Shown one piece after another: positions 1 to 43,958 of a stretch of DNA of 51,719 bases. Position 1 is the first letter of the stretch, and each line of letters begins with the position of its first letter. The notes below the pieces were generated by a model. The model worked only from the letters and a program-made list of their open reading frames with translations, did no database searches and was not told where the DNA came from. Both the position numbers and the translations under genes were made by a program. The DNA lies in contig CAUYUJ010000015.1 in NCBI GenBank assembly GCA_963575745.1, forward strand, positions 620,001 through 671,719. Direction: 5' to 3'. This DNA comes from Prorocentrum cordatum. Lineage: Eukaryota.

Positions 1-260
1 GACGACGATGACGATGACGGCGGCAATGCCAATGAGAGCACCGATGCTGATCACGCCGATGACGTCGATGGTGTCCACGTGTAAATGATGAAGGTTGTGG
101 AAGGATTTCGACATGCGCGCGCGGCCGAAGAGCGCGAGTGGCCCGCATGGAATCACTTGAGATGGATCGCGTCCGCCCCCCCAGCACGCGCGCAAGGAAG
201 TTCAAATGATTTCGGCGCGCGCGCGCAGAAGGCCCGCTTGGTTGCATGTGATCCAAATTT
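1..260 (+). repeat. Diverged copy of the dispersed repeat family also present at ~37790-38050
   Basis: Collinear shared blocks GATCACGCCGATGAC, TGATGAAGGTT(G/T)TG, CGACATGCGCGCGCGG and CGCGAGTGGCCCGCATGG at 49-150 and 37838-37939. Confidence 0.75.
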
Positions 261-499
261 TGAAAAGTGCACGGTTACCTTAAGAGTTTGCACGAGCGCG
301 CACCTTTTTTCTTTCAAAAGTCATGTTGCAAAACCACGTGAGGGTTTTGATATCCACGCGATTTTTTGGTTTTTGTTTATGGTTTCCGGCATGGGCGTGC
401 GACGACGCGCAGTGTGGGCAATGTCAAGTCGTTCGCCAGGGATTCGTGTAAATGGATGATTGTTGATGCACGAGGGTGCGCGCATAGTCGCATAGTATG

Positions 500-1599
500 A
501 TTCCTCTCGCTTCGCGGGGTGCACGTCCGGAGCACGTACAGTCACGTCGTCGCGGGGCCTCTTGGGAGCCTTTTGGGGGCCTCCTGGAGGCCGCCTGGGA
601 GTTTCTTTTGGCCTTTTGGGGGTTTCTTTGGGGGCTTTCCCCCCTCCTTCCTTTTCATACACCCTCCCCATTTTCCCTTCCATCGCCGGCTCCAATCATG
701 GGCGCCGCAGTGACCAATTTCCACTTGGTTGGCGCTGCGCCGCAGTTCGCCCAGAGGGGGGAAAATAACATTACACACCAGTCGCTGTGTGGCCTTTGGG
801 GGGTTTGTTGGAGGCTCTTTGGAGGCTTCTGGGGGACTTTTTGGAGGCTTGTTGGGGGCCTCTTGGGGCCTCTTGGGGGCGTCTTGGGCTGTTTTGGGGC
901 GCTGTTGCGCCGTTTCGCCCCCTCGGAGGCTGTCTTGGGGGCCTCTCGCGGTCGCATTGGAGCCCTCTTGTGGTCCTCTTGGGCAGTCTTCGCTGCCTCT
1001 TGGACCGTCTTGGGGGCCTCTTTGGGTCGTTTTGGGGCCCTCTTGGGCCGTCTTGGGGCCCTCTTGGGGTTTTTTTGGGCCGTTTTGGGGCGATTCTGGA
1101 AGCTGCTTGGGCCGTCATGGATTTTTGAAAGCCGAAAAAAAAAAACGAAAACGCTAAAATATTGCAAGAACCATCGGAAAATCCACGATTTCGGCGTCTG
1201 GAGGCGCAGTTATGGGCGTTCTTGGGCCCTGTTGGGCCGTCTTTGGAGCTTTTGGGGCCCTCTTGGGGCCGTTTTGGGGGCCTCATGGGCCCCCGTTGGG
1301 AATATCTGGGGCCGTCTTAGGGCCATCTTGAGGCCCTCTTGGAGCCCCAAGAGGCCCAAGAGGCCGAATTTGCTAATTGTTCATATGTTTTTGCTAGTTT
1401 TTAGGACCCCAGAAGGGGGGGGTCCTCTTGGTCCGGCGGTGTGGCGCAGCTCCCAGGGGGGGGGCAGGGGGGGAAGCATAATAATGTAACACAATACAAT
1501 ATGTTGCAATTATGGAATCTTTGGATACATTGGATACGTTGCATTAAGGCGTTCGCCGAAAAACGCTGCCGCTCAGCACGTCACCTCCGGACGTGGATT
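500..1599. mobile_element. Putative non-autonomous rolling-circle-like element, subfamily A copy 1
   Basis: Left end: ATT (500-502), mini-hairpin CGC-TTC-GCG (508-516), arm CACGTCCGGA (522-531). Central GGCCTCTTGG/GGCCGTCTTGG minisatellite. Right end: hairpin CACGTC-acctccg-GACGTG containing the reverse-complement arm TCCGGACGTG (1586-1595), then ATT (1597-1599). Confidence 0.6.
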
Positions 1600-2712
1600 C
1601 CTCTCGCTTCGCGGGTGTGCACGTCCGGACCACGTACAGTCCAGTTGTTGCGGGGCCTTTTGGGAGCTTCCTTGTGGCCTCTTCGAGGTGTCTTGGGTGG
1701 GGGCCTCTTTGGAGGTGTCTTAGAACCGCTCACGCAGTTAGAATGCACCGTGAACGTGCTGCCTTCAGCCATCGTAGCGAGGATTTCCGCCAAGGTGCGG
1801 GGACGTGGAGACTCGCTCGTCGAGGTTCCAACCTCGGGCTGAGGGGGCGATGAGGACGATGAGGAAGAACAGGAGGGAAAAGACGGGGATAGGAATGAGG
1901 ATGACGACGATGAGGAGGATGAGGAGGGCGATGAGGGAAGCGGCGGCCCCATCTTCCCTCCCAGCGCCGGCTCTACTCATGGGCGCCGCCGTGACCAACT
2001 TCCACGCGACAGGGCGCTTTTGCGTTGTATCGCCCCTTGGAAGATCGTCCTGGGGGGATCCCGCGGCCGCCTTGGGGCTCTCTTGGGGTCCTTCTGGGCC
2101 GTCGAAGGGGCCTCTTGGACCGTCTTGGGGGCCTCTTTGGGCCGTGTTGGGGGCCTCTTGGGCCGTCTTGGGGCCTTCTCGGGGGCTTCTTAGGCCTTCT
2201 GGGAGCCATTCTGCAGGCTGCTTGGGCCGTCACTGGCTTGTCAGAGTCGAGAAAGGCGAGAACGTTAAAATCTTCCCACAACCATACGAACATTTATGAT
2301 TGTGGCTTCTGGAGGCGCTATTGGGGATCCTCTTGGGGCCCTCTTGGGGCGTCTTGGTAGGTTTTTGGGCCCTGTCGGGGCCATGTTGGGCCGTCTTGGG
2401 GCAATTTTGGGTCTCTCTTGGGCCGCCTTGAAACCATCATTCGCCTTCTTGACGCCCCTTGTGGGCTTCGAGGAGGGCCCCGAGGCCCAAATCAATGACT
2501 TCCATGCGTTTTTTTTTGTTTTCACAAAGTACGTGGAAACGGGTCGACGACTCGGCGGCGGCCCTGGGGGGGGATTAAGGGGGGGTGCTTTTCAATGTAT
2601 GAGAATGCGATGTTTTGCAATCGGCCTTCCTTGACGTATCGTGGCTGGGCCCTGGCGTCACACACCCGTCCTGTCGGACTGCCGAGACGCTTCGCTGCAG
2701 TCCGGACGTGGA
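1597..2712. mobile_element. Subfamily A copy 2, head-to-tail with copy 1
   Basis: Starts ATTCCTCTCGCTTCGCGGGTGTGCACGTCCGGA, sharing the single ATT with copy 1. Internal CATGGGCGCCGC(A/C)GTGACCAA(T/C)TTCCAC matches 697-724. Ends at TCCGGACGTGGA (2701-2712). Confidence 0.55.
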
Positions 2713-3560
2713 CCGTCGCATGTGTCATCCTCTCGGTGGCAATTTTGGAGGCAGTGTGGGCCGCCATGCCTCCCTCTTGGGGACATCTTGAGGCCCCTTG
2801 GGGGCCTATTTGGGGCATATTGGGGCCTCTTGGGGGCGTCCTGGCGCCCGTCTATGGGCGCTCTTCCGCCGTTTCGCCCCTTCGGAGACCGTCTCGGGGG
2901 CCTCCCACGGCCGCCTTGGGGCACTCTTGGGATGTTTTTTCGCCGTCCTAGGGGCCTCTTGGACCGTCTTGGGGGTTGCTTTGAGCCGTATTGGGGCCCT
3001 CTCGGGCCGTCTTGGGGCCCTTTGGAGGGCTTCTTGGGGCTTCTTGGGGTGTTTTTGGAGGGTGCTTGGGCAGTCATTGGCTTGTCAGCGTCGAGAAAGG
3101 CGAGAACGCGAACATATTCCCAAAACCATAGGAAAATCTATGATTTTGGCTTCTGGAGGCGCTCTTGGGGGGTCCTCTTTGGACCCTCTGGCGGCGTCTT
3201 GTGAGTTTTTGGGCTCTCTTGGGGCCATCTTGGGTCGTCTTGAGGCCGTTTTGAGACTCTCTTCGGCCGCCTTGAAGCCATCTTGAGCCGTCTTGACGCC
3301 CCTTGTGGGCTCCGAGGAGGGCCCAGAGGCCGAAATCAATGATGTCCATAGGTTTTTGTAGGTTGTTGAGTTAGTGGACGAAAGGGGTCGGCGACTCGGC
3401 GGCGGCCCTGGGGGGGGATTAAGGGGGGAGACATAATAATGTAACACAATACAATATGTGGCAATTATGCAATCATTGGAAACATTGGATACGTTGCATT
3501 AGGGCTTCCGCTCCGCTGCGCGACCTGCCTCCGGCAACACGTCACTTCCGGACGTGGATT
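2713..3560. mobile_element. Subfamily A copy 3 (left end degenerate)
   Basis: Same minisatellite. 3432-3500 matches 1477-1546 (CATAATAATGTAACACAATACAATATG...ACATTGGATACGTTGCATTA). Ends CACGTCACTTCCGGACGTGGATT (3538-3560). Confidence 0.55.
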
Positions 3561-3561
3561 C

Positions 3562-5186
3562 ATTGGCTTACGCCGCACCGCCGACCCCTTGGGGCGGCAG
3601 CAAGAGTGAAAGACAATGACGCGGAACGCGCGCGATCGCTGGGAAATCTTGAGGTTTCGGCCTGTACTACGTAGCGTATGGGGTTAAAGAGGGGCCCTTT
3701 TGTAGGGGATTGCTTTAAAGTTTTTCGTGGACTTATCTGAGTCTCTTGGGGCCTTCACGGGGCCTGTCCCAGGCCTCCATTACCACCTCCTGGATAGGCT
3801 CGGGGATCGTTGAGACCCAGCTGAGGTTGCGTCCCGCCAGAAGTTCGAGAGTGGATCCAGCTGTGTCGACGAGGAGCTCCCTGAAGGCCCAGACGGGGCG
3901 GAGAGCGCCCAAGAACTAGGAGTCTCATGCCTCGAACCTGGATCCACCCCGTGTTCCTTCCTTTGCGAAGTGGTGGCGCCTGCCAGGGAGGTCGTTCCTC
4001 ATCCCGGATTTTCGGCGGTGGTCCCCGGCACCGACAACGGTTCTTGGAGGGTGAATTCGAGGAGATGCTTCGGGTGGTCGAAAGACCACGAAAATATGTG
4101 AGACATCGGCGGCGGCGACGTCACGTTCTTTATTTTGTTCCCTTTTCCTCTTCCTGTTCCTCCTCCTCGTCCTTCTCCTTTTCTTCTTCTCGATCGAGGT
4201 AGATGATCGCACCAGTTCATATATATGTATATATATGTGTATATATACGTGTGTATATGTATGTATACATATACATAAACATATACATACATGCGTGCAT
4301 GCATGCATACATCCATCCATACATACATACATACATACATGCATATGTACATATGTACATATGTACCTGGTATGTACATTTGTATATGTATATATAATGG
4401 CCTTCGGCCCATCCCGCCACCGCGCTTTGGTTGGCGGCCTGAGATCCTTGGTGCCTGGGCTGCGGGTTAGAAGTTACATGCCTCAAGTGGTAATTGGGGG
4501 TACTTTTGAGTTTCTTGGCGGCCTCTTGGAGCCTCTTGGGGTCCTCTTGGGGCCTCTTGGGGGGCCTCGTGGGGGCCCCATGGGTCCTGTTGAGCGCCTG
4601 TTGGGCACCGCTGGGGCCGTTTTGGAGCGGACGGTTCGGATTGTTGATTCAGGCTCCTCCTCTTGGGCCCCGCTTCGGGCCGTCTTGGGGCACTTTTGAG
4701 CCGTCTTGGGAGCCTCTTGGGCCGGTTTGGGAGCCTCTTGGGCCGTTTCGAGCGCCTCTTGGGAACCTGTCGGGCCGTTTGGGGGCAGTCTTGGGGGGCT
4801 CCGGGGCCGTCTTCAACGCCGCGAAGGCCGAAAAAACGTGCATCATAAAAATGTAAGAAGTTCTCCTACTAGGAATTTGTCAACTTTGGGGCCCCTCTTG
4901 GGGATGCTCTTGGAGGTTTCCTGGGCCGCTTGGAAGGTTTCTGGGGCCGTCTTGGGGCCATCCTGGGCGTCGGGGCCTTCTTGGACCGTCTTGGTGGCCT
5001 CTTGGGCGGCCCCAGAAGCTGTCGTGGACTTCAAGAACGAGCCCAGGAAGGGCCTGACCCCCCAGGTGAGCTCTGGCTGGACGGCCCTCCCCCCCTCCAA
5101 ATCGACCGGACTTGGCTCCAGGGGAGAGGGGTTTGGGGAAGGGGAAGCATCTCACACGCCGATGATCCCCAAGGGGTCGGCGGATT
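3562..5186. mobile_element. Putative rolling-circle-like element, subfamily B (17-bp perfect asymmetric inverted repeat)
   Basis: Left end: ATT (3562-3564), hairpin GGC-TTAC-GCC, arm CCGCCGACCCCTTGGGG (3578-3594). The exact reverse complement CCCCAAGGGGTCGGCGG (5167-5183) sits within hairpin CGCCGA...TCGGCG and is followed by ATT (5184-5186). Contains the CTCTTGG minisatellite at ~4510-5010. Confidence 0.6.
4219..4396. repeat. AT-rich (TA)/(TACA)/(TATG) microsatellite
   Basis: Direct inspection. Confidence 0.9.
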
Positions 5187-5546
5187 TGACGAGGGCGACG
5201 GGGCTGGGTCGATACAGGCTTGGCTGGGATGATACAAGTTCATATTCAGAATGAACGAGGGGGGAGATCAGTTGTAAATTTCACATTCGCAGAGGGGGGA
5301 AATAAAACCAGGCGGGATATATTTTATTTCCGTAAGGGGAGAATCTACGTCGAGCAATGTATGTGACGAGGCCGCGAAGGGGCGGCGGCGGCGACGACAT
5401 AGCCGCCAGACCGCTACCCAGGCCCAGACGACGGGCGGCGACGGGGCGGCGACGGCGAGTACGGAACCGCCTGACCGCAAGACCGGTCCAGTTCCTCAGA
5501 AGAGAAATAAGAGCCCCATGAGCGCAAGCATGGTTCTGGAAATCGG

Positions 5547-12839: not shown

Positions 12840-13670
12840 TGCAACAGCTTCACTGATGGAGGGCGGGCCGTTTTCAAAATGTGGCCCCCAGTTTACCGCC
12901 GCGCAAATTCGCTTTAAAAGTGCGCGGAAGCATAACGGATGGAGGGCGGGCCGTTTTCAAAATGTCGCGCTCGCCGCAGCGCCCCCGCACATTATTTTTA
13001 AAAGTGCGCTGGAGCTTCCCGGGTTGAGTTCTGGCCGCTTTCGCAATGTGGCTCTCGCGCTGGCGCCGCGCAAGTTTATTCAATTAGTGGTTAAGAGCTT
13101 CGAGGATGGAGGGCGGTTCGTTTTTCACAGTGCTGGTCTCGCCTGGGCCCCGCGCGCATTCTTCTAAGAGTTTGCAAGATCTTAACGGGTGAAGGGCGGT
13201 TCCTTCTGAAAATGCTGCTTTCGCTTAAGCGCCGCGCGCATTTGTTCGAAAAATGCAGCCGCTTCAAGGATGGAGGGCGGGCCGTTTTCAAAATGGGGTT
13301 CCCGCCCTAGCACCGCGTGCACTCGCTTCAAAAATAGTAGGCCGCATCTTCACGGAAAGACGGCGGGTCGTTTTCAAACTGCGGCATTCGCTCTAGCGCC
13401 GCGAAAGCTCGATTTTAAGTGCGCAAGAGTCTCACACATGCATGGCGGACAGTTTTCCAGATGTGGCTCTGGCTTGGCGCCGCGCGCATTCGTTCAAACA
13501 GATTACAGCAGCTCCAAGGGTTCGTATCAACGGCGTCGCCTAAGTGGTGTTTCGGCACGGTTTCGGATCGCCAGGGTGCAACAGTCACGTTGACCTGCGA
13601 TGTCGAAGTCCCACGAGTGGCGCTGTGGCACGACACCCCAGGAATGGTGCTTTGGCACGGTTGAAAATAT
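12840..13670 (+). repeat. Interspersed element built from ~8 diverged 83-bp tandem units plus a second subrepeat
   Basis: GATGGAGGGCGG...TTTTCAAAATGTGGC...GCGCCGCGC recurs at 12855, 12938, 13105 and 13269 (period ~83). Related copies at ~13920-14358, ~17230-17720, ~31680-31970 and ~34270-34530. Confidence 0.85.
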
Positions 13671-14360
13671 TCAGGCGGTTGTCTTCTAACGCAACACCTC
13701 CCGCCGAAAGAACTCACGCTTGCTGGGGCCCATGAAAATTGAACTTGGAGGGAAGGTTTACTGCGACATCGTCGATGAAATTTACATTGGCCCTCATCAT
13801 CCATTCCTTCTCCTTCTAAGTAACTCCTTCCTGTCGCTCCCCGAGGCCAGTCTCATGGGCGGGCCTGGCGTTTCCCCGGAGACTTCCTCGCCGCACATGA
13901 GCCTGAAGCTTAAAACTAGCACCGCTTTCACGGATTGGGGCGTTCGGTTCGTGCGCTAGCGCTGCCCACTTCGGCTCCAAGAAATTGGAGGAATTTCACG
14001 GATTGAGGACTGGTCGTTTCCAAAATGCGATTCTCGCCTCAGCGCCGCGCACATCCGTCCTAATAGATGCAAAGCGTCACGGACGGAAGGCGGGTCGATT
14101 TCAAAATGTGGCTCTCGCATTGGCGCCGCGCACATTCATCAAACCAAAATGCAAATTTCAAGAGCTTTACAAATCGAGGGCGGCTGGTTCTCAAGATCGG
14201 GTTTTCGGCGAAACGCCGCGCTTTTTCGTCTCATGAGTTCGCAACAGCCTCGAATCATGGTGAACGTTCCAGAAATCACATGTTGGCATCATGTCGGGTC
14301 GCAAGGTCACAACGGTTCCGTTGGTTCGCGGCGTTGAAGCCCCAAGCATGGTTTTCTGGC

Positions 14361-15778: not shown

Positions 15779-18700
15779 GCAGGGCGCAAGGACGGCGAGC
15801 GGCTCTCGTCTACGCAGGGCGACGGTGTCGCCGCCGAGGCAGCCGCGGCCCTGGCCGACGCTCTACCCGACGCCGCGGACGCCGCTGCGCGCCCCGTTAG
15901 TACGGCATCGGCCGGGGCATCGACGCCGCCCACGTCGCAATCGCCGGACAGCATGGAGTACATCAAGGCGCCGGCGAAGGTCAAGGCATGGCCCGAGGAA
16001 GGCGCAGCGGCTGCCGACATCTTTCGGCGCTCGCAGCATGCAGCGGACCGCCTCCAGCGTCGGGGAGCGGATCGCCGGGGCCGCCTCCTGGCGCGGCAGG
16101 GCGCTGCGCACGCGGCGGCCGCGGCGCGCGCGCGCGGCAGGGGGGCCTGGCCTAGCCCCCTGAGCTCCCGGCGCGCCCGCTGGCATTGTCTCCATCGTTT
16201 TCGCCCCCACGGCAGCCGCGGCGGCGTCGTCCCCGGCGCCGGGCGGGATCGGCGCGCTCGTGGAGCTCGTTCTCGCACTCTGCTTCATGGAGTGCTACAT
16301 TCACAATATCTTCGCAGGAGGCTCGCTCTCCTTGGCCCCATCGCTTTGTGGCCCTGCTCGTTCTCTGAGGCTCGCTCGCCGAGGCCCGCGACGCAGGCCG
16401 CCCCTTCGTCGCCGAGGCCCTCTCTCTGAGGCTCGCGAACAAGGCGCCCACCGGATGAGAATATCCGCGCCGTTCTCGGGTGCGCATGTTTCAGTTCGTT
16501 AGCGATCAACCGCTGTTGCGACAGTCTCGTGGTCGCGTTCCAGCGCGGCCCGCGCCGCCGCGACAGTTTCGGCGCGCATCCCCCTCCCCCGCCGCTGCGT
16601 TACGACGGGCGTTTGCGAATTATCTCTCCCAGTTTTGTCTGCTCTTCCTTCCCCCTTCCCCCCCCTCCCCCTCGGCCAGGGTTCGGGTTTTTTGCCCCCG
16701 CGGCACCCCGCCCCCGCATGCAGCATTTTGCCCGACCCAGGGGGCTCGGCCGGACAAGGTCGACGCACGCGTTGCGGCGCGCTTGGGGGCGACAACTGTG
16801 CAGTTCTCAATTCGCCCCTGGTCTTCACGCCGCGGTTGAATTGTCTCGCGGCGCGGTGGCCACCGCGCCGCGGGTGTTCTCGCGGCCGCGCCCCCCCCCC
16901 CCCCCCATAAAATAAATGCGCAGGCCGCCAAGACGCAGCAGTAGCGGTGGTTCGAAGCGCTGAAGTTCCATGAATAATGTTTCGGCATAGTTCGGAATTT
17001 TCAAACGGCTGTCTCCCAGCGGGACACGCGCATCAGTGACTGCGATTTCTTGTAGAGGCCCACGAAGAGGGAGCTTGCAGGGAGGGCGCATTGGAATATG
17101 GTTGATGAGCACTGGGTTTACACTAGTCCCCCTCCTCCTCCTCGCCCAGCCCCCCCCTTCTAAATAATCCCCCCCCGTCGCGCTCCGAGGCCAGTCGGAA
17201 GGGCTGGCCGGGCGTTGCGCCGGAGATTTCTTCGCCAATCATGAGCACCTTCACAGATGGAGTCGCCGCCAACACGCGGCCCTCGCCTTGGCGCCGCGCA
17301 CTTCCGCTTTAACAAACGGCAGAAAACTCCGCCGATTAAGGACAGGTCGCGCCCAAAATGTGGCTCCTGCCCTAGCACCGCGCACATTCATTCTAAGCAG
17401 TTAGCGCATTTTCCAGGGCTCTCATGGCGAGCGTTCCACGCGTGGCACTTTGGCACGGCACACCTAGTTCGATTTCGCCCGGCGTTGGAGCCATTCGCCC
17501 ATTGGGGATCTGGACCCCATGGATTCCGTCAACGACGTTTACGCACCCAGACGACACGCAGTGGAACCCAGTCTCACCCCGCCCCCTGATTGCCCATGCC
17601 CGTACTGGGAAGGCGCCCCCCGCCGAGCTGGGGGCCCGTGCACCACCAGTTACAGAATGATTCAATGTTCGCAAGTCACTGGCGTTTGAATTTTGGGCGC
17701 AGCGATAGGCCCCCCGTTTTCGACTGGCAGCCTGTAGGCACAGGCCGCCCAATGCATGTTCACCGCTTCAAGGGTTGCACGTCCAGATTCATCGAGAGCT
17801 TTGAAAAAAAGGAGCCTCATCGCGGATCCACAAGCCGCATGGGTTCTTCTTTTACAAGGGCCATCTCACGAGCTGAGGGGCCACCTAGGGGGACCTGCAA
17901 ACCGACATAAGGGCGCGATTCTGGCGTTTTGGCTCAAAATGACCGCCTTCGGCCCACGCCAGGGCGCACCCGCATGCACATTGCATGCGCTGAGAAGTGG
18001 GGCATTGTGACGACGCCCATTGTCCGCTGCACTTCTCTCCGCCAGGATGGCGCTGACCCTGACGGGCAGGCCGAGCGCGCGTCTCATGTCGAGCGCAACC
18101 TCCAGACCCTTGGCGCCGACACAAAGATGGGCGCCTTCTTCGGCAAGGAGGCCGCCTGGGAGATGGCCAACAGTTTGATCGACGACGCTCCGCGCGCCTC
18201 GGCCTTGGAAAAAGACGAGTCCATTATGTTCCTGGACGTTGCTGCGAGGCTTTCGGACCCTGCCGATTGACGGGCCACGGCGGCCCCCGGGGCGAGCCAC
18301 GTGCAGCGGGTCGAAGAGAAGTGGAAGAGCAAACCAGACTTGCCGCATAAGCAAATCAAAGATCAGCCCCCCCCCCTCTGAAGTCGAAGCTGAAGGGCGC
18401 GGCGGCAGAACCGCGTGCGATTCTCAGTCTGCGCTGGGAGGCCAGGGCCGTGACTGGAACAGGACATGGAAGGATTGCGCCGATTTTGCGGGGGATATCA
18501 GGCAATGACGTGGCCAGCTACAGTAGGCATCCATCGAGCTGCCTTCGCCTTCTGCTTCCACGCAGCGGCCCGAATCAGCCCCCAGCATCACGTCTACCAG
18601 CCAAGCCGCGGGGCGAGACCCCATCGGCCCTCGGGGCACGCAACGGCCACCAGGCATCGGTCGCAGAGAGCTGCTGGATCTTCTCAGCGCCATCGGGGCC

Positions 18701-21249: not shown

Positions 21250-24200
21250 CCACACCTTGCACGAGTGGGCCTTGCAGTGGATTAAGTTACGCAGCGCTTG
21301 TGGTCCCACGGCCACGGTGGATGGTCGGCAGCTCACTCGCCCTTGCACCAAAGCCGCAAAGAAGGGCTTGGTTCATCTTGGACGTCTCAAGACTGGCAAG
21401 CACCCTTCCTACAGAGGACCTCCAAAGGTGGCTGCGGAAGTACAGCGCGTCGTTTTGGCGAACTTTTCAGCGGAGGCCCTCGGGGCCAAGAGCGCTCCCG
21501 CACTCCTCCGCACCAGCGCCCGCGATCCCCCCCCCCCCCCCATGCGTTGCCGACGCCTTGCCAGCGCCGAGGAAACCGCGCCTCGGGGGCTGGCGCCCCA
21601 TCCTTGAGCTCCACGGCTGACGCCCCCCTTCGGCGACGCTTCTGGCCCGCGGCGTTCGGGCCAGCGCGGGCCCGATGGGGACGCGCGCTCCGTTGTCAGC
21701 GTTGTATCCCAGGCCACGGCGACAGGCATCGCGGTTCCCGGCGGAAGAATCGACGCCTTGGCTGGGCGCCCTGGGAACGGGGTGTTCGTTGGTGTCGAGG
21801 CCGGCTGGGGAGGGGGCGGCGCTTCGGCCAGCGCGGCGCGCGACCGCCCTGCCCGCCGCCCGACGACCACAACCCCGACGCCCAGGACGGCCCTTGGCGC
21901 GAAAGGGGCGGGATGACCTCAACGCACTTCGTGGAGGTGACGAAGAGGAGAGGAGTACAGGTCGATATACGTGCTCCGCGCCAGCACGCTCGCTTCGTCG
22001 AGCGGCGCGGGGCCATGCCGCGACGAGCACGTCACGCCGCGGAAGAGAAGCTAGAGCGCGAAGGCATCACGGTGAACTTCGACTCCATGCTAGCGCATGC
22101 CATCTTTGCCGGCAGCAGCCTCACTCACGTGGGCGGCGCTACGCCACGCAACGTCGTCTTCGGACGCCAGCCGCCCACGCTGCCACCACTCGAAGCAGAC
22201 GAGCAGCGTGGGGCATCCAGCGACTGCGTCGCTGGCGCCGAGCCTCCTGCTGGTGGGGAAGTGCAGCTCAGCCGACTGCAGTGGCGCATCCGAGAGATAG
22301 CCCTGCAACGCACGATCGAAGCCGCATCGATCGCACGCGTCAACCGCGCCCCCGGGACCCGCACCACCGAGTCTGGGGAGGGCTGCTTCAACGTGGGCGA
22401 CCAGGCGGAGATGCACGGGCCGCCAAGCACCAAGGACGCGCCAGGCTTGGCGGGCCGTGGAACAGTCATGTCTGTAGACCTGGCTCGAGGCAAGTTCACG
22501 GCCATGTGCTGCGAGCCGAGATGGTCTGCAGGCTGCAGGACGCCTGGGCTTTCATCGGTGCCGTCTTCGGCGAGATGGGCACCGGCATGGTGCGAGCATG
22601 CTTGGCCTGGGACCGCGCGGAGGACTACCTGGAGCACATGGCGCCAGGCTCTGGGGCCAGGACCTTCAGCCAATGGGTGGACACCACGGGCGCGCAGCTC
22701 ACCGAGCAGGCACAACAACGCCCAAACTTCCTCGAAGCCTTGCGCCATCTTTCCCACAGATGCTTCCAGCTACCAGACGTTCGCGCTGCACGATTCAGTC
22801 GCGGTCAGAAATATGCGGGTACGTGGCAAGACTGCACTCGCAGCTTGGCCATCTGGTGGTTCCCTCGGAACATTTTTTGACGTCCGGCAGATCCACCTCA
22901 ACGGCGCCACGTTCGACACCCACCAGCTCACCGGCGAGCACAGGAAAGAAGCTCGCATCATCCAGTTCATCTTGGGCGAGGAGCCGTTACTGACAACGGA
23001 CGCCGGACAGGGACTGGACGGAACGTTCGACGGTTGCGCCATCGACGTCCCCGAGGACACCGCCATCACCACTGAAGGCGGATCACCGTCAGCGCTGTCG
23101 GCTATACCAGAGGAGACCGGCAGCGATTTCTCTGGCCACATCCACCAGGTGACGTCGGCAACTTGGCGCCAAGTCGAGTGGACAGAAGAGATTGCCCAGG
23201 AGCTGGCGGCGCTGGAGAACGCCGACAGCCAGCATAAGATCTCCGCTGCTGTCGAGCACGCCGCGCCCGACCTGGGCCCTAGGCCACGCGAGCGGCCCCG
23301 GCACCTCGAGACGCAGCATCAGCGCCAGAGCATCCCCGCGCAGTGCCACCATTACTTGCGCGGGGCCTCCTTGGGCGACTACGCCACGCAAGAGGAAGAA
23401 GACGCTGCGGGTAGACAAGTGGAGTTGCATGTGGATCCAGGAGCGCGCGAACTACTCCTGAGCTTCAACGAGGCTGCGTCCAGCGACTGCGGCGCCAGCG
23501 CTCCTCGAACTGCTGCGCGCGGCGACTGCGTCGTCGGCGCATCTCAGACAGCTGCGCTTGACATCTACGCCGCCGCCAAGACCGAGGTCATCAAGCGCGA
23601 CACTAACCTTCTGTCCGACGAGGAAGTGTCACAGCTGTCGGAGGAGGTCGCAGCCGCCATCCTCGAGGAGCTCACCATCTGGGTCAAGTACAACTGTTTC
23701 GAGAGGCGGCCGCTCGAAGGCGCCCGAAAATCAACGGGCCCCAGACGTGTCTTCAAATTGAAGCACCGGAAGGGATCAGACGGCAAGACTGTCAGGATCG
23801 CCCAGTGCCGCCCGGCTTTGAATGGCTCCCGCGACATGGGCGCCGTAGCCCCGGAGACGTTCGCTCGGACAGCGAAGCAGACGTCTAAGCGCTCATGATC
23901 CGCAGGGGCGGCGCGTCGCCCCGACCGGGCGCGCGTCGCCGCTGACGTCGAGAAGGCAAACCTGCAGGGGATGACTGCGCAGGGATGCGGGAGCAAGGCG
24001 GAGCAGCTCGAATGGTGAACTTCGCCCTGCCACACGGCAGCGCAGCCATCCTCATGGAGGTGCCCGGCCACGAGAGCTTCGACGAGCGGACCGAGTGCCT
24101 GCGCTGCATCAAGCCGGGCACAAACTGCAAGGATGCGCCCAGAGCTTTCTCCATGAAGCTCGCCTGGGCCCCGCGCTCACCTGAACGCAACACCAAACCT

Positions 24201-33323: not shown

Positions 33324-33325
33324 TC

Positions 33326-37299: not shown

Positions 37300-40200
37300 G
37301 GGCGGGGGTAGATCCTAATTCAGTTCGAGAAACATGTGGTGCAATATACGTGGAGAAATAGACGTGATGCAATATACGCGGTGCAGTTTGCGAGGCGAAA
37401 TGACTGCAGTGCAATATATGGTGTGCGATGTTTGTTGTGCAATCTGTGTGGAGCAATCAATAGTGCGCAACTAATTGTAAAAACTTGGACTTGTCAATTC
37501 CACTGCTCGCACAATCATCCCACCCACCCACCCACCCGTAACTTGGTTTGCAAAACCCTTGCGGCGGGGATCGCGATGAGTGTTCGGCGTTGGCTCGTGC
37601 ATCGTTGCGGCCGCGCATGCTCGCGCGCACGGCGGCCAGCTAGTTTGGCGCGGCCGACGCGGCCGCGTCGGCGCTGACCGCTGGGCACCTCCCAGCGGGC
37701 ACCTCAGTGCGAGTCGTTGACTCGGGCGCGCAGTGTACCGTGGCGACGCCGCCAACGGTACACACGATAATGAAAATGGCGATGATGGCGGCGATGATGG
37801 TGGTGACGACGGCAAAGCCAAGGACGGCGCCGATGTTGATCACGCCGATGACAATGACGGGCTCTTCGCGTCTGTGATGAAGGTTTTGAAAGGAGTTCGA
37901 CATGCGCGCGCGGACGACGCTCGCGAGTGGCCCGCATGGTATTATCTGGCAGGGGTCGCGCCCCCCGCCTCCCCCAGCACGAGCGCAATGGCGTTGGAAT
38001 GGTTCCAACATGCGGCGCGAGAAGCCAGTTTGATCACATCCCACGAATAGGTCGAGATGAACGATGGTGATTATACATCTGTATATACACACATACATAC
38101 AAACGAAAGAAACACCAAAAATAAAAAAGCTGCGAGTGTCCGCACATGTATATGTACATGTGTATAAGTGTGTATTGAAACGGGCGTGAGCAGGGGGAAC
38201 AACCAACAGGACACTCAGTTTTGACATGCCCACGAAACCTAAAGTTGTTGCAGGGTTGCATCATTCGCGCGCGACGACGCGCGCGCGTGCATGCTGCCCT
38301 GCGTCTGCAAGGGATTCTTGCGACAGCACGCGCGCGAGGGCGCTCGAACGATTTCGGCATGCGCGCGAGAGACGCATGTTTGGCAGCATTGGGGGACGTG
38401 TTGAAAACATGTTTCCAGAAGTCCCAGGAGCGCGACCCCATGTTGTTTTGAACGTTCGGGACATTCGATTATGGAATGTCTATACACAAAACAAGTGTTG
38501 GATGATTTCGGCATGCGCGCGTGGCGGCGCGCGCGGTGCACTTCTTGTTGTCTTCGTGCAAGGGAAGTTTGCAAACTGTGACTGTCGATAAACTAGTGCG
38601 CGCGCATTCTCTGTCTTGCCGAGGATGAGGGATGTCGATAAGGGATTGCCTGGGATGGTACGACATCAAATACAGGATGGACGAGTGTGCAAAATCATAT
38701 ACGGAACACCTATACTTCCGAAAAGGTGTACCGTTAAGCCCGAGGGGGGTCAGTCCCAATATTTTTGGAACAGCAATATATGCGGTGCAGCCGATGAGGT
38801 GTAAACTATGTGGTGCAATTAATGTCTGTTCGCAGTGAGTTGTCCACTCCATTGCTCGCGCAAACATCCCACCCACCCACCCGCAACTTGGCGTGCCAAA
38901 TCTCTTAAGACCGTGACGGTGGGTACCAAATGGCACTTGGCAACGACAGCGACGCCGACGACGACAGCGACAACGACGACGACGACGCCGCCGACAACGA
39001 CTACGACGACACCGACGACGTCTCAAACGACTCCGACGACGCCGACAACGACGACGACGACGACGACACCGACGACGACGACGCCGACGACGACGACGAC
39101 GACGACGACGATGACAACGACGCCGACGATGACGACGCCGACGACGACAACGACGACACCGACGACGACGTCGACGACGACGCCGACGCTGACGACGACG
39201 ACGACGACGTCGACGACGACGACGGCGACGACGACGACGCCGACGTCGACGACGACGAAGACGACGACGACGCCGACGCCGACGCCGACGACGACGACGA
39301 AGACGACGACGACGTCGCCAACGAAGACGACGACGAGGGAGGAGGGAGGACGACGACGGCGACAACGACGACAACGACGACAACGACGACGGAGGAGGGA
39401 GGACAACGACGACGCGAACGGCGAAGAAGGAGGAAGGACGGCGACGCCGACGACGACAACGACGAGGGAGGGGGGAAGACGACGACGACGACGACGACAA
39501 CGACGACGGCGACGACGATGACGACGACGACGGCGACGAAATAGGAGGGACGACGACGGGACGCCGACGACGGGCGACGACGACGACGAGCGAGGAGGAG
39601 GAAGGACGACCACGGCGACAACGACGATGGAAACGACCACGACGCCAAAGAGGACGACGACGACGAACACGAGGAAAGACAGAGGACGACCTAGGCGACG
39701 ACGACGACGACGACGACGACGCGGGAGGAGGGAGGACGGCGACGACGACGACGTTGACGACGACGCAAGAGGGCGCGCGCGCACGCTTTTGTTGAAAATC
39801 CGTGGTGCGAAACCTTGTGTTTTTGTAGGTTGTTTGGACACACGATGTTGAAATCCTTCCGAAGCCGATGGGTTTTGAAGGATTCCGGCATACGCGCGCG
39901 ACGACGCGCGCGTCTGCAAGTCGTTTCATTTTTTGCAGAGGACTCTCGCGACGGCACACGCGCAAGGGCGTTGGACAGATTTCGACATGCGCGCGCGCGA
40001 AGCCCGTTTGGTAGCATTGTGTGAAAATCTTGAAAAACCGATGGTTTTTTAAAGATTTTGCAAGAGTTCGCGCGTAAGTTGTTTTTGCAAATCAGTGTTG
40101 CGAAACCAAGTGTTTTTGTATGTTTCTTGGAAACTCGATTGCGAAATCCTTCCGGCACCGAAAGTTTTTGGAGGATTCCGGCATGCGCGCGCGACGACGC

Positions 40201-42256
40201 GCGCGTGCATACTTTGTCCCATGTTTGCAAGGGACTCGTGAAAAAGGGCCATGTTAAAACACAGGGGGAGCGATACTGGAACCCCTGGGATAGTGTAAAT
40301 TCATATTTGAGATTGACACGTGGTCAGAATCATATATGATTTACATACCCGAAAGAGGGGGGTAACACTGGGGGGGGTAGAGTCTATTCTCTTTTAAGAA
40401 AGGAGAATCAATCACTTGCTCCATTTGAAGCTGTCCTCTCCACTGCTAGTGCAAACATCCCAGCCACCCACCCGCAACTTGGTCGCAAGACCTCTTAAGA
40501 CCGTGACGGTGGATACCAAACGGCACTTGGCAACGACACCGACGCCGACCACGACAGCGACAACGACGACGACGACGACGATGCGCCGACAACGACTACG
40601 ACGACACCGACGACGTCTCCAACGACTTCGACGACGACGACAACGACGACGACGACACCGACGACGACGACGACGACGACGCCGACGCTGACGACGACGA
40701 CGACGATGACAACGCCGACGACGACGACGCCGCCGACGACGACGACGACGACGCCGACGACGCCGACGACGACGACGACGACGACGATGACAACGACGAC
40801 GACGACCACGACGAGGACGACGACGACGACGACAACGACAACGACGTCGCCAACGAAGACGACGACGACGAGGGAGGAGGGAGGACGACGACGGCGACGA
40901 CGACAACGACGAGGGAGGAGGGAAGACGACGACGACGACGATGACGGCGACGAAATAGAAGGGACAACGACGAAACGCCGACGAAGACGACGAGGGAGGA
41001 AGGACGACCACGGCGACAACGACGACGGAAACGACGACGACGCCAAGACGACGATCACGACGACGAGGAAAGACCGAGGACGACGACGGCGACGACGACG
41101 ACGCAAGAGCGCGCGCGCACGCTCTTGTTGAAAACCCGTGTTGCGAAACCTTATGTTTTTGTATGTTTTGGACACGCGATTTTGAAATCTTGCCGAAAAC
41201 GAAGGTTTTTGAAGGATTCCAGCATGCGCGCGCGACGACGCGCGCGTCTGCACTTCGTTTTTTCTCTTGCAGAGGATTCTCGCGACGGCCCGCGCGCGAG
41301 GGCGTTCGAATGATTTCGACATGCTCACGCGCGAAGCCCGTTTGGTAGCATTCATCCAAAATATTGAAAACCATATGGTTTTCTGAAGATGTCGCAAGAG
41401 CGCGCGCGTAAGCTTTTTTAGAAAATCAGTGTTGCGAGTGCATGTGTTTTTGCACGTTTGTTGGGAACCGATTTTGAAATCCTTCCGAAGCCGAAGGTTC
41501 TTGAAGGATTTCGGCATGCGCGCGCGACGACGCGCGCGTGTGCACCTCGTCCCGTTTTTTGCGAGGGATTCTTGAACATTGATGATTCCTGATACATGAG
41601 AGCGCGCGCATGTTTGTGTTGCAGAGGATGGCGGGGGGGAACGATACCGGTTTGGTTGGGATTGTACGAACTCATATTTAGGATGGACGAGTGTGCAGAA
41701 TAAATATGAAACCACAATACCCCCGGGGGGATCGTTAATTCCAGGGGGGGGCGAGTCCATTCTTTTTTTGGAAAAGTGAACCTACATGGCGCAATGTATG
41801 CGGTGCAACGTATGCGGTACAATGCCTTTTGCGCAGAGCAATGCCAAGCAATGCGATGGCAAAGCAGCGCGGTTACAATGCAATGTAAGCAGGGCAATGC
41901 GGCGCAAGGCGATACAATGCGACGCGAGGGGATGCAAAACAGTGCAAAGCAACGAGGCGGCGACGGTGAGGCGACGGCGACTACGGAGCTGCCAGACCTC
42001 CACGCATGCCCAAAGGACAGGCTGCGACGTGGCGGCGACAGCGACAGCATAGCCGCCAGACCGACCTTCAGGCCCAGACGCTGGGCGGGGACGAAAGTGC
42101 GACGAGTTGGCGACGGTTATTACATATCCGTCAGACCGACCTTCGGGGCCAGTTCCGTCCTCACGTGCAATCACTGCTTTGAAAACAACTAAGAAACCCT
42201 AAGTGCAAGCACTGTTCCCCAATCAGAGCTTCCCTCTGTAGGGGTCCTGGCGGATT
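37300..42256 (+). repeat. Diverged tandem array of a ~1.4-1.6 kb module with (GAC)n tracts and CG-rich palindromes
   Basis: 38841-38990 aligns with 40432-40580 (CTCTTAAGACCGTGACGGTGG...GGCACTTGGCAACGACA); a third partial copy lies at ~37490-37560. Recurrent GCATGCGCGCGCGACGACGCGCGCGT. Confidence 0.85.
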
Positions 42257-42691: not shown

Positions 42692-43958
42692 ATTCTTTAC
42701 GCTTCGCGTATCCCCACCAGTCCATCTCAAAACAGCAACTCCTGCGAAGCATGTCGACAGTCGTTTTTCAGGCGTGTGTCCGCTTCCCCCCGCATATCTC
42801 CCCTGTTCCTCCTTCCTCCCGCCTCCTTGTACATCCTCCTTGTGGTGGGAGCGGGAGAAGGACGAGGCGGAGGAGGAGGGAGAGAAAGCGCTCCTCGTGG
42901 TTTGAGTCGTTTGGGGTTTCTCGTCCTGGTGTGAGTCGTTCGGGCCCTTCTTCCTGGTGTGAGTCGTTCGGGCTCTTCGTGGTGTGAGTCGTTCGGGCTC
43001 TTCGTCCTGGTGTGAGTCGTTCGGGCTTCTCGTGGTGTGAGTTGTTCGGGCCCCTCGTCCTGGTGTGAGTCGTTCGGGCCCCTCCTCCTGGTGTGACTCG
43101 TTCGGGCTCCTCGTGGTGTGAGTCGTTCGGGGCCCTCGTCGTGGTGTGAGTCGTTCGGGCTCCTCGTGGTGTGAGTCGTTCGGGCGCCTCGTCCTGGTGT
43201 GAGTCGTTCGGGCCCCTCCTTCTGGTGTGAGTCGTTCGGGCTCTTCGTGGTGTGAGTCGTTCGGGCCCCTCGTCCTGGTGTGAGTCGTTCGGGCTCCTCG
43301 TTGCGTGAGGCGTTCGGGCACCTCGTCCTGGTGCAAGTCGTTCGGGCCCCTCGTAGTAGGAGTAGTAGTAGTAGTCGTAGTAGTAGTAGATGTTTTTGGG
43401 GGCCTCTTGGAGGCCTTTTGGGGCGTCTTCGGGGCCTCTTGGCGGCCCCAGGGGCTTCTAGGAGCGTCTTGGGTGCCTTGGGGGAGCCTCTTCGGGCCTC
43501 TTGGGAGCCTCTTGGAGGCCGTTTGGGGCGTCTTGGGGGCTTCTTGGCGGCTCCAGGGGCTTCCAGGAGCGTCTTGGGTGCCTCGGGGGAGCCTCTTGGG
43601 GCCTCTTGGGGGCCTCTTGGGGGCATCTTGGGGGCCTCTTGGAGGCCTCTTGGGGCCTCTTTGGGCTCTTTGGGAGGGGTCTGGGAGGAATCTTGGGGCC
43701 ATCTGTCGGGCGATCGATCACATATGGGGCGAGCACTTTTCTCCCCCCCCCGTCGGGGCCAGAATCCTCGTGAGGGGTGTCGAATTTTAGCCCTCCCAGG
43801 AGTCGAAAAAGACCCCTCCAACGACCCGCGGAACGCCCTCTCCAGGCCCAGGGGGAGGGGGTAGGGCGAGGGGTAAACCCCTCCCCGAAGGGGAAGAAGG
43901 GGGGTTGAGAACAGAGAGAGCTCGCTAAACCACTCACGCCCAAAGGGCTGGTGGGATT
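42692..43958. mobile_element. Putative rolling-circle-like element, subfamily C
   Basis: Left end: ATT (42692-42694), perfect mini-hairpin TACGC-TTC-GCGTA (42698-42710), arm CCCACCAGTCC (42713-42723). Right end: hairpin ACCA..GCCC-AAA-GGGC-TGGT with arm GGGCTGGTGGG (43945-43955, 10/11 complementary), then ATT (43956-43958). Contains the GGCCTCTTGG minisatellite at ~43395-43700. Confidence 0.6.
42893..43353. repeat. 25/28-bp minisatellite (TGGTGTGAGTCGTTCGGGC + 6-9 nt), ~17 units
   Basis: Constant 19-bp core followed by short, mutually similar variable tails. Confidence 0.9.

What the first reader, a model, noticed from the sequence alone, without database searches (positions are those of the whole stretch)
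500..5186. Family of non-coding elements with a conserved terminal grammar and co-varying asymmetric inverted repeats (candidate dinoflagellate rolling-circle transposons)
Seen in sequence: elements 500-1599, 3562-5186 and 42692-43958 all read ATT - tiny hairpin (CGC-TTC-GCG, GGC-TTAC-GCC, TACGC-TTC-GCGTA) - arm X ~15-22 bp from the end ... GGCCTCTTGG minisatellite ... larger hairpin containing revcomp(X) - ATT. Copies 1597-2712 and 2713-3560 each keep one intact end. Arm X is unrelated between subfamilies (CACGTCCGGA; CCGCCGACCCCTTGGGG, 17/17; CCCACCAGTCC, 10/11) but matches its own partner, so structure rather than sequence is conserved. On the minus strand the mini-hairpins have GAA/GTAA loops, the very stable ssDNA GNA-type hairpin. 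Established knowledge: Helitron2/Helentron and DINE-1-like elements have one inverted repeat at a terminus folded into a hairpin, the other subterminal and followed by a short hairpin, internal tandem repeats and no long TSD. Inference: these are non-autonomous HUH-mobilised elements read on the minus strand, with arm identity possibly specifying the subfamily and its transposase.
Basis: partly seen in the sequence, partly recalled or inferred. Interest (0 to 1): 0.82.

Follow-up and report, generated by a model that had tools for sequence, protein, structure and literature searches.

The report
Non-coding Helitron2-like transposons, stacked head-to-tail
These repeats are gene-less passenger copies of a rolling-circle (Helitron2-type) jumping element in a GC-rich marine microbe; the kind is already known, and what stands out here is unusually clear paired-end structure and copies stacked head to tail.

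Summary
Five non-coding copies lie at 500-1599, 1597-2712, 2713-3560, about 3559-5186 and 42692-43958. They share one layout: ATT, a short tail, a mini-hairpin, arm X, a GGCCTCTTGG minisatellite, a hairpin holding revcomp(X), then ATT. The arms differ between the three subfamilies but match within a copy (10/10, 17/17, 10/11).

Read on the minus strand, every testable structural criterion published for Helitron2 is met. The 5' arm lies 1-2 nt from the end and sits inside a 5' hairpin. The 3' arm lies 19-22 nt from the end, just before a 3' hairpin.

All four mini-hairpins fit the ultra-stable GCGNAGC/GCGNNAGC motif on the minus strand only. Two paralogous loci lack the 4.7-kb block E1-E4. Five metagenome copies all show head-to-tail junctions. 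One diverged family shares only a 68-bp joined-end core.

Not shown: any RepHel transposase (134 frames scanned, none found), the exact nick position (ambiguous within 3 nt, so a 3-bp ATT duplication is not excluded) and the host taxon ("dinoflagellate" is unverified).

Verdict: new members of a known kind, of moderate interest.

The parts
501..1597 (-). E1, full copy of subfamily 1 (TTC...GGA on +; 5'-TCC...GAA-3' on the inferred sense strand)
   Evidence: Both ends are intact and the arms are 10/10. The left flank is unique host-like sequence.
1598..2712 (-). E2, diverged copy of subfamily 1, head-to-tail with E1
   Evidence: Its left end is 85% identical to E1 over 92 bp. Arms lie at 1620-1629 and 2701-2710. 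The right end GGACGTGGA is followed by CCGTCG, not TT.
2713..3558 (-). E3, truncated copy of subfamily 1 that lacks the mini-hairpin end
   Evidence: Homology to E1 starts at about E1 position 776. The right end is intact (3538-3558).
3559..5184 (-). E4, subfamily 2, 17/17 arms, directly abutting E3
   Evidence: The start at 3559 rather than 3562 is my inference from the shared TTC start.
42693..43956 (-). E5, subfamily 3, solitary copy with unique flanks
   Evidence: Arms are 10/11.
508..516 (-). 3' mini-hairpin of E1 (minus strand CGCGAAGCG; GCGNAGC type). The equivalents are 1605-1613 (E2), 3565-3574 (E4, GGCGTAAGCC, GCGNNAGC type) and 42698-42710 (E5).
   Evidence: The hairpin appears in the minimum-energy fold of all 4 ends. 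The motif consensus comes from the start of the abstract of PMC13037366.
522..531 (-). 3'-ATIR of E1 (arm X). The equivalents are 1620-1629 (E2), 3578-3594 (E4) and 42713-42723 (E5). They lie 19-22 nt from the inferred 3' end.
1577..1597 (-). 5' terminal module of E1: the 5'-ATIR (1586-1595) inside hairpin CACGTC/GACGTG. The equivalents are 3538-3558 (E3), 2665-2712 (E2, different hairpin partner), 5157-5184 (E4) and 43930-43956 (E5).
855..1091 (+). G/T-rich 10-11-bp minisatellite (GGCCTCTTGG type). Similar blocks lie at 2065-2184, 4513-4795 and 43396-43698.
   Evidence: periods 11, 21, 43, 53, so not codon-like; the exact 10-mer occurs only inside the elements; 16 G-quadruplex motifs on +, 0 on -.
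41530..41720 (+). Paralogous empty site 1, which lacks the E1-E4 block
38521..38700 (+). Paralogous empty site 2

Best explanation
The five repeats are non-autonomous rolling-circle transposons of the Helitron2/Helentron (HINE/DINE-1-like) type. Their sense strand is the window's minus strand.

Layout on that strand:
- Each element begins (T)CC with a 10-17-nt arm, the 5'-ATIR, which also forms a 5' hairpin.
- It carries C-rich minisatellite blocks.
- It ends with the complementary arm (3'-ATIR), a very stable GCG(N)NAGC mini-hairpin and a 5-7-nt purine tail ending GAA.

Inferred mechanism, by analogy with Helitrons and with Bao and Jurka's proposal:
1. A RepHel (HUH-Y2 nuclease plus Pif1-like helicase) encoded elsewhere nicks at the 5' boundary.
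2. It peels off the minus strand 5'->3'.
3. When the 3' arm emerges it pairs with the 5' arm, and the mini-hairpin positions the second cut.
4. The ends are joined as ...GAA|TCC... into a single-stranded circle.
5. The circle integrates at an AAT/ATT site without a long duplication.

Because only pairing of the arms is needed, the arms drift and co-vary between subfamilies, while the tail, mini-hairpin and junction stay conserved. Both new junctions again read A|TTC / GGA|TT. Later insertions, even of another subfamily, can therefore land exactly at an existing end and build head-to-tail arrays.

Shown here: the anatomy, the covariation, the conserved termini, the insertion relative to paralogs and the head-to-tail stacking. 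Inferred: the enzyme, the strand transferred, the circle and the exact nick.
For: 1) Structural criteria of Helitron2 (PMC3627910, passages) are all met on the minus strand.
- The 5'-ATIR should be 0-2 bp from the 5' end. Here it is 1-2 nt.
- The 3'-ATIR should be about 20-30 bp from the 3' end, just upstream of a hairpin. Here it is 21, 22, 19 and 20 nt.
- A 5' hairpin should involve the 5'-ATIR. One is present in E1/E3, E2, E4 and E5, with four unrelated stem sequences. It is in the minimum-energy fold of 4 of the 5 ends and in the centroid of the fifth.

2) Arms are unrelated between subfamilies but match within copies: 10/10, 10/10, 17/17 and 10/11. The strict grammar is expected 0.1 times per window.

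3) All four mini-hairpins fit GCGNAGC or GCGNNAGC on the minus strand only. That is the consensus of the 'extraordinarily stable mini-hairpin' (start of the abstract of PMC13037366).

4) Mobility.
- The flanks 400-499 plus 5187-5290 align colinearly to 41530-41720 and 38521-38700, which lack the 4.7-kb block.
- E5 is solitary with unique flanks.

5) Termini are conserved while interiors are swapped. Metagenome contig L024 shares with the L020, L021, L023 and L025 contigs only a 68-bp joined-end core at 91% identity.

6) Head-to-tail stacking.
- 5 of the 5 true metagenome left ends are preceded by a right end, and L024 holds a second junction.
- In the window E1|E2 are head-to-tail, and E3|E4, which belong to different subfamilies, abut with no spacer under the TTC...GGA parse.
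- Tandem insertions of Helitrons and Helitron2 are reported (PMC5148889, passages).

7) Internal tandem repeats are typical of HINEs (PMC4067079, passages; start of the abstract of PMC7492417).

8) The metagenome copies are 91-95% identical to each other, and adjacent units reach 97%. They are distinct copies that have diverged little from one another.
Against: - No RepHel or other HUH protein was found. None of 13 plus 121 translated frames reached a Pfam cut-off. The genome is not held, so no autonomous partner with the same ends could be sought.
- ATT stands at both ends of all three subfamilies, which also fits a 3-bp target duplication. The paralog alignments do not tell 0 from 1 ATT at the empty site (scores 20 vs 19 and 16 vs 15).
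- Hairpin energies are not significant on their own and are alike on both strands. For the minus strand, z ranges from +0.82 to -2.17; 7 to 163 of 200 shuffles fold as well.
- There are only three independent families in the window, and E5's arm match alone is within chance.
- The ends lack the T-runs described for Helentrons and FoHeli elements, and lack CTRR.
- E4's arm (17 nt) is longer than the published 8-15 nt.
- The E2/E3 joint, a truncated copy fused to an intact arm end, is not explained by simple insertion.
Confidence: 0.72

Rival explanations
1. The elements move through single-stranded DNA or a circle but are driven by something other than a Helitron RepHel. Candidates are a Y1 HUH enzyme of IS200/IS605 type, a plasmid- or virus-type Rep, or a tyrosine recombinase acting on the joined-end site (arm' - ATT - mini-hairpin - arm).
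For: - There are subterminal hairpins at both ends, a fixed short sequence (ATT) at both junctions, and strictly head-to-tail stacking.
- The joined ends would fold as a 10-17-bp stem capped by a 16-25-nt loop that carries the cut site and a mini-hairpin, much like a replication-origin stem-loop (sequence).
- There is no CTRR end and there are no T-runs.
- No RepHel was found.
Against: - The exact asymmetric layout is the published hallmark of Helitron2: arm at the very 5' end, and arm plus hairpin 19-22 nt from the 3' end.
- From my own knowledge, not from a call: IS200/IS605 ends use 4-nt guide pairings rather than 10-17-nt arms, and tyrosine-recombinase cores have 6-8-bp spacers, not 19-25.
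- No such protein is in the window.
Confidence: 0.14
2. They are MITE-like passengers of a cut-and-paste DDE transposon that makes a 3-bp ATT target duplication.
For: - ATT flanks both ends of E1 (the outer block), E4 and E5.
- One ATT at the reconstructed empty site is as good as none.
Against: - The inverted repeat is terminal at one end only. At the other end it lies 19-22 nt inside, in all three subfamilies.
- The terminal 19-22 nt of the left end have no inverted partner.
- All junctions are head-to-tail (7 of 7 seen) and all five window copies share one orientation.
- E2's right end is followed by CC, not TT.
Confidence: 0.08
3. It is simply a 1.05-1.2-kb satellite that spreads by unequal crossing-over, and the 'ends' are internal features of the monomer.
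For: - 5 of 5 metagenome left ends and 1 of 2 window left ends of subfamily 1 lie in tandem junctions.
- Adjacent units in L020 are 97% identical.
Against: - E1's left end, E4's right end and both ends of E5 meet unrelated sequence exactly at the ATT.
- The paralogs lack the block.
- A different subfamily (E4) sits head-to-tail with E3.
- L024 shares only the 68-bp end core.
Confidence: 0.05

Closest known systems
Helitron2 group of Helitrons and its non-autonomous members (Bao and Jurka 2013, PMC3627910; e.g. Helitron-1N1_CRe)
   Same: - Short asymmetric terminal inverted repeats.
- A 5' arm at the very end that forms a 5' hairpin.
- A 3' arm about 20 nt inside, directly before a 3' hairpin.
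- Compensatory changes that keep the arms paired.
- No long target duplication.
- Small non-coding derivatives.
   Different: - No RepHel partner is known here.
- The ends read (T)CC...GAA with an AAT/ATT at both junctions, rather than T-rich targets (TTTT|T/C in Chlamydomonas).
- One arm is 17 nt (8-15 published).
- The 3' hairpin is the minimal GCG(N)NAGC mini-hairpin.
Helentron-derived HINEs / DINE-1 (Thomas et al. 2014, PMC4067079) and oyster Helentron-borne satellite-like repeats (PMC7492417)
   Same: - Subterminal inverted repeats.
- A short 3' stem-loop.
- Central tandem repeats that fill much of the element.
- Families defined by their arms.
- Tandem insertions reported.
   Different: - No runs of T at the boundaries.
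- The TT target is not demonstrated.
- The host is a marine protist, not an animal.
- Whether the driver carries the endonuclease domain is unknown.
FoHeli Helitron2 elements of Fusarium and relatives (PMC5148889)
   Same: - ATIRs with hairpins.
- Joined-end (circle) products.
- One copy inserted 2 bp from another's 5' end, and three copies in tandem in Metarhizium.
   Different: - The fungal 3' ends finish in ATTTT.
- Those elements are autonomous and 6-7 kb long.
Canonical Helitron1
   Same: - A 5' TC start and insertion at A|T are both possible readings here.
- A 3' hairpin close to the end.
- No target duplication.
   Different: - The 3' end is NGAA, not CTRR.
- Helitron1 lacks the paired arms and the 5' hairpin.
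Helitron2-like RepHel reported in the dinoflagellate Symbiodinium microadriaticum (PMC8788227, passages)
   Same: It shows that this clade of transposase exists in at least one marine alveolate, which makes it a plausible kind of driver.
   Different: No link to this window was tested, and the window's taxon is unknown.

Membership tests
Helitron2 (structural definition of Bao and Jurka 2013) | 5'-ATIR 0-2 bp from the 5' end | tested here: met
   On the minus strand the arms end 2, 2, 2, 1 and 1 nt from the inferred 5' end in E1, E2, E3, E4 and E5. The boundary is uncertain by up to 3 nt.
Helitron2 (structural definition of Bao and Jurka 2013) | 3'-ATIR about 20-30 bp from the 3' end, immediately upstream of a hairpin | tested here: met
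   The distances are 21, 22, 19 and 20 nt in E1, E2, E4 and E5. The mini-hairpin follows after 2-6 nt.
Helitron2 (structural definition of Bao and Jurka 2013) | 5' terminal hairpin that involves part or all of the 5'-ATIR | tested here: met
   It is in the minimum-energy fold for E3, E2, E4 and E5 and in the centroid for E1. The stems differ in sequence between subfamilies. Energy z-scores alone are weak (+0.82 to -2.17).
Helitron2 (structural definition of Bao and Jurka 2013) | ATIR length 8-15 bp | tested here: inconclusive
   The arms are 10-11, 11 and 17 nt. E4 exceeds the published range.
Helitron2 / Helentron | Insertion at T|T or T|C without target duplication | tested here: inconclusive
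   The shared AAT makes the cut ambiguous within 3 nt. Readings A|T and T|C/A both fit. Two paralogous empty sites do not tell 0 from 1 ATT. The targets are as summarised in PMC13085455.
Helitron2 / Helentron | Autonomous partner with the same ends that encodes a RepHel of that clade | not testable with these tools
   No genome is held. Within the window, none of the 13 plus 121 frames reached a Pfam cut-off.
Helentron-derived HINE / DINE-1 | Runs of 2-5 T at the element boundaries | tested here: not met
   The ends read TTC...GGA on + and TCC...GAA on -. There is no T-run beyond TT.
Helentron-derived HINE / DINE-1 | Central tandem repeats and a 3' stem-loop | tested here: met
   Tandem Repeats Finder finds periods of 11, 21, 43 and 53 inside all copies. 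The mini-hairpins are shown.
Canonical Helitron1 | 5'-TC and 3'-CTRR termini | tested here: not met
   A 5' TCC is possible, but the 3' ends are GGAA, TGAA and AGAA.
DDE transposon / MITE | Inverted repeats terminal at both ends | tested here: not met
   The left 19-22 nt have no inverted partner, and the repeat is terminal at the right end only.
Plain satellite DNA | Copies only in arrays, with no precise ends against unrelated DNA | tested here: not met
   E5 is solitary. The E1 and E4 outer ends are precise, and the paralogs lack the block.

The most novel reading that the evidence does not exclude
These are not passengers of an ordinary Helitron2. They belong to an undescribed lineage of single-strand/circle transposons of marine protists, either a new RepHel class like the one just reported for Paramecium or a non-RepHel HUH enzyme.

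In this reading the joined ends form an origin-like stem (the two arms) capped by a loop that carries the conserved cut site GGA|TTC and an ultra-stable GCG(N)NAGC mini-hairpin.

Every insertion recreates two copies of its own target. Unrelated subfamilies therefore stack head-to-tail and seed kilobase-unit satellite arrays.
Probability: 0.15. Interest if true: 0.7.

Novelty: new member of a known kind. Interest (0 to 1): 0.35.

Why it matters
- It classifies an abundant, otherwise unclassifiable repeat of a GC-rich marine eukaryote. Related copies turn up in several marine metagenome contigs.
- It predicts that the host carries, or once carried, a Helitron2/Helentron-type transposase.
- The three subfamilies are a clean natural experiment. 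The arms change freely but stay complementary, while the tail, mini-hairpin and junction stay fixed. This supports the published idea that arm pairing, not arm sequence, marks the end of rolling-circle transfer.
- The strand-specific GCG(N)NAGC mini-hairpin gives a sequence-only way to tell which strand moves.
- The head-to-tail stacking of different subfamilies shows one route from a transposon to satellite-like arrays.
- None of this changes the known picture of Helitrons.

Tried and rejected
- Whole-genome search: no genome is held for this window.
Polymorphic empty sites therefore remain untested.
- Sequencing-run search: 10 runs hold part of the stretch, the best share being 0.25. They are coded names and marine metagenomes. 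None was laid, so I draw no habitat or strain conclusion.
- Collection scans.
  - The degenerate 17-mer in viral contigs gave 18 loci (L001-L018). I took these for chance without inspecting them.
  - Of the 7 loci from the metagenome scan, 2 (L019, L022) are chance matches in long contigs and were dropped.
  - The right-end 22-mer gave 0 hits in genome contigs and 0 in viral contigs.
  - Left-end patterns of the three subfamilies gave 0 hits in viral contigs.
- Rfam: 0 families at gathering score.
- Taxon.
  - Frame 21286-23895 has one unnamed homologue, P0001 (48% identity over 76% of the query).
  - The cluster look-up could not be made because the database was off.
  - The protein atlas gave no usable hit.
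  - No Pfam family reached its cut-off.
- Hairpin energies as evidence: rejected. They are not better than shuffles and are equal on both strands.
- A 'degenerate left end' for E3: rejected. The local score was 27 and 10 of 300 shuffles did as well. The real homology is to E1's interior from about position 776.
- Using E2's GGA|CC joint to fix the boundary: weakened, because ACC may belong to E3.
- Earlier notes of this scan: nothing for this genome or sequence. The word 'Helitron' matched 17 findings; the 8 shown all concern other genomes and do not bear on this one.
- Literature: searches for Helitron with dinoflagellate (34 papers, 15 listed) and for Helitron with Emiliania huxleyi (5 papers) listed no description of these elements. 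The HELIANO paper has none of the terms dinoflagellate, Symbiodinium, haptophyt, Emiliania, Alveolata or tandem. Repbase could not be consulted, so prior annotation there is not excluded.

Full report
WHAT IS THERE

The window is GC-rich (51-71% in 2-kb steps) and full of simple repeats. No Pfam family reached its cut-off in 13 plus 121 translated frames, and there are no Rfam matches. No genome is held for it.

Four left ends have ATT, a 3-5-nt spacer, a mini-hairpin, a 2-6-nt spacer and an arm X. The mini-hairpins are CGC-TTC-GCG (twice), GGC-TTAC-GCC and TACGC-TTC-GCGTA. Four right ends have revcomp(X) inside a larger hairpin, followed by (G)ATT. The arms are CACGTCCGGA (10/10 in E1 and in E2), CCGCCGACCCCTTGGGG (17/17, E4) and CCCACCAGTCC (10/11, E5).

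E1, E2 and E3 are homologous at 72-85% identity. E4 and E5 share with them only the minisatellite architecture and the short terminal module. The exact word GGCCTCTTGG occurs 17 times on the + strand, all inside the five elements, and twice on the - strand, both in E1. The repeat periods are 11, 21, 43 and 53, which are not codon-like.

IS IT MORE THAN CHANCE?

- A strict scan for the whole grammar with exact 10-mer arms finds 5 left/right pairs on the + strand, which is two independent families. It finds none on the - strand and none in the reversed or complement-only sequence.
- 200 Markov-1 simulated windows give a mean of 0.1 pairs. 20 of 200 have one pair and none has more.
- E5 is found only with 8-mers, where chance gives 1.66 pairs per window, and one other, probably chance, pair also appears. 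Its arm match alone proves nothing.
- E5 is supported by its 17-nt left end. The pattern ATTCYTYWCGCTTCGCG matches only E1, E2 and E5, with 0 expected in 100 shuffles. E5 is also supported by the element-specific minisatellite.
- A relaxed scan did not discriminate: 11 and 2 hits against 1-7 in each of 10 simulations.
- Folding energies are weak evidence. The expected hairpins appear in the minimum-energy or centroid folds. On the minus strand z runs from +0.82 to -2.17; 7 to 163 of 200 shuffles fold as well, and the two strands score alike.
- The case for structure therefore rests on position and covariation, not on energy.

BOUNDARIES

All four left ends read A|TTC (500-503, 1597-1600, 3558-3561, 42692-42695). 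All five right ends read GGA, followed by TT in four cases and by CC in E2. I therefore favour units TTC...GGA on the + strand:
- E1 501-1597
- E2 1598-2712
- E3 about 2713-3558
- E4 3559-5184
- E5 42693-43956

Under this parse E3 and E4, which belong to different subfamilies, abut with no spacer.

Because AAT/ATT stands at both junctions, the cut can be slid by up to 3 nt. A|T with a 5' TC, T|C/A, or a 3-bp ATT duplication all give the same empty site.

E3 is truncated. Its homology to E1 starts at about E1 position 776. My first idea of a degenerate left end was not supported (10 of 300 shuffles scored as well). The ACC at the E2/E3 joint may belong to either copy, so that joint does not fix the boundary.

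MOBILITY

- The sequence left of E1 (90-485) and right of E4 (5210-5267, 5366-5477) has paralogs at 41201-41611, 41642-41699 and 41952-42063, and another at 38634-38685.
- The joined flanks align colinearly across the junction to 41530-41720 and to 38521-38700. The 4.7-kb block E1-E4 is therefore an insertion relative to both paralogs.
- Reconstructions with 0 or 1 ATT score almost alike (20 vs 19, 16 vs 15), and 2 ATT is worse (14, 10).
- E5 is solitary. Its left flank has no other match in the window and its right flank only one short local repeat.

COPIES ELSEWHERE

One metagenome scan with a left-end pattern gave 7 loci. Two are chance matches in long contigs and five are true relatives: L020, L021, L023, L024 and L025.

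- In all five, the left end is directly preceded by a right end (...TCCGGACGTGGATTCCTCTCGC...).
- L024 holds a second junction, about 1.04-1.06 kb from the first.
- The four similar contigs are 91-95% identical to each other, so they are distinct copies. Adjacent units are 97% identical in L020 and 85% in L024.
- L024 shares with the others only a 68-bp core across the joined ends (91% identity). The rest does not align apart from the minisatellite.
- Conserved ends around unrelated interiors are what a transposase-recognised terminus looks like, and not what a satellite monomer looks like.
- Scans of prokaryote genome contigs and of viral contigs found nothing.

WHAT IT IS

Bao and Jurka (PMC3627910, passages) define Helitron2 by four features:
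- short asymmetric terminal inverted repeats
- a 5' arm 0-2 bp from the 5' end that forms a 5' hairpin
- a 3' arm about 20-30 bp from the 3' end, directly upstream of the 3' hairpin
- a 5' T

They also report compensatory changes that keep the arms paired, and they propose that arm pairing marks the end of rolling-circle transfer.

On the window's minus strand the elements fit feature by feature:
- The 5' arm lies 1-2 nt from the end.
- A 5' hairpin contains that arm, with four unrelated stem sequences: E1/E3, E2, E4 and E5.
- The 3' arm lies 19-22 nt from the end and is followed by the mini-hairpin and a 5-7-nt tail.

Thomas et al. (PMC4067079, passages and section 11) describe the same plan for Helentron-derived HINE/DINE-1 elements. 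It includes central tandem repeats and families defined by their arms.

Tandem and near-end insertions are reported for Helitrons and for Helitron2 elements (PMC5148889, passages).

A Helitron2-like RepHel has been reported from one dinoflagellate (PMC8788227, passages). I could not link it to this window.

STRAND

On the minus strand the four mini-hairpins read GCGAAGC (three) and GCGTAAGC (one). They fit the GCGNAGC/GCGNNAGC consensus of the 'extraordinarily stable mini-hairpin' (start of the abstract of PMC13037366). On the plus strand they do not fit it.

The consensus words are common in this GC-rich window, with 36 and 40 sites on the minus strand. The argument is therefore their fixed position 5-7 nt from the end in all subfamilies, including E4, whose loop differs in length.

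MECHANISM (INFERRED)

1. A RepHel encoded elsewhere nicks at the 5' boundary of the minus strand and unwinds 5'->3'.
2. The 3' arm pairs with the 5' arm, and the mini-hairpin sets the second cut.
3. The ends join as GAA|TCC.
4. The circle integrates at an AAT/ATT site.

Both new junctions regenerate the site. This would explain why copies, even of another subfamily (E4 next to E3), sit exactly end to end.

The adjacent window copies are only 72-85% alike, and E2's arm-end hairpin differs from that of E1 and E3. This argues for successive insertions rather than one concatemer or a recent unequal crossover. The 97% identity of adjacent units in L020 leaves room for the latter in other arrays.

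WHAT IS NOT SHOWN

- The enzyme, the circle and the exact nick.
- The absence of a 3-bp duplication.
- The taxon.
It is untested, and the shared tail, mini-hairpin and junction hexamer make a common enzyme at least as likely.

NOVELTY

The architecture, the covariation of the arms, the internal repeats and the tandem insertions are all in print for Helitron2/Helentron elements. My literature searches listed no description of these particular elements (term search). Repbase could not be checked.

I rate this a new member of a known kind. The strand-specific ultra-stable mini-hairpin and the mixed-subfamily head-to-tail junction are modest points of interest.

Noticed in passing
window 501-5184 and 42693-43956 (+ strand): G-quadruplex motifs (four runs of 3 or more G with loops of 1-7 nt) number 16 on the + strand of the five elements and 0 on their - strand. 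The other 45.8 kb hold 14 on + and 19 on -. The G-rich strand is always the complement of the inferred transferred strand. Metagenome copy L024 has none on that strand. Helitron helicases are Pif1-like, so a link is conceivable but untested.
   Followed up: partly
window 1-499, 5187-5540, 37792-38700, 39954-42063: A segment is present in three diverged copies (65-77% identity). It is associated with long CGA/GAC-repeat open frames (38469-39965 and 40495-41760, minus strand). One copy is the one interrupted by the E1-E4 block.
   Followed up: partly
window 12840-14236, 17319-17398, 31690-31923, 34297-34376: A dispersed and locally tandem repeat of about 83 bp (GGATGGAGGGCGGGCCGTTTTCAAAATGTGGC...GCGCCGCGC...), 13 copies at 60-78% identity to the reference copy. 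Its nature is unknown.
   Followed up: no
window 32257-34093: About 193 copies of the hexamer GCCTCA are followed directly by 10.5 copies of a 73-bp repeat.
   Followed up: no
window 42325-42624: An 8-bp minisatellite (TATAGCCC, about 37 copies) ends 68 bp before the left end of E5.
   Followed up: no
window 42890-43354 (inside E5): E5 carries its own 53-bp (28+25) tandem repeat and a GTA run in addition to the shared minisatellite.
   Followed up: no
window 1690-1946 (inside E2): A stretch specific to E2, absent from E1 and E3, holds a GAT/GAG-rich tract. That tract resembles, on the opposite strand, the CCT-repeat region at 49100-50340 (70-75% identity, low complexity). It may be a captured fragment or mere simple-repeat likeness.
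   Followed up: no
window 2689-2695: The arm-end hairpin of E2 holds a second copy of the mini-hairpin word (GCGAAGC on the minus strand) in its loop.
   Followed up: no
window 21286-23895 (+): An 870-aa open frame with normal amino-acid complexity has one unnamed metagenome homologue (P0001; 48% identity over 76% of the query, E 3.5e-161). It is probably a real gene of unknown function.
   Followed up: partly
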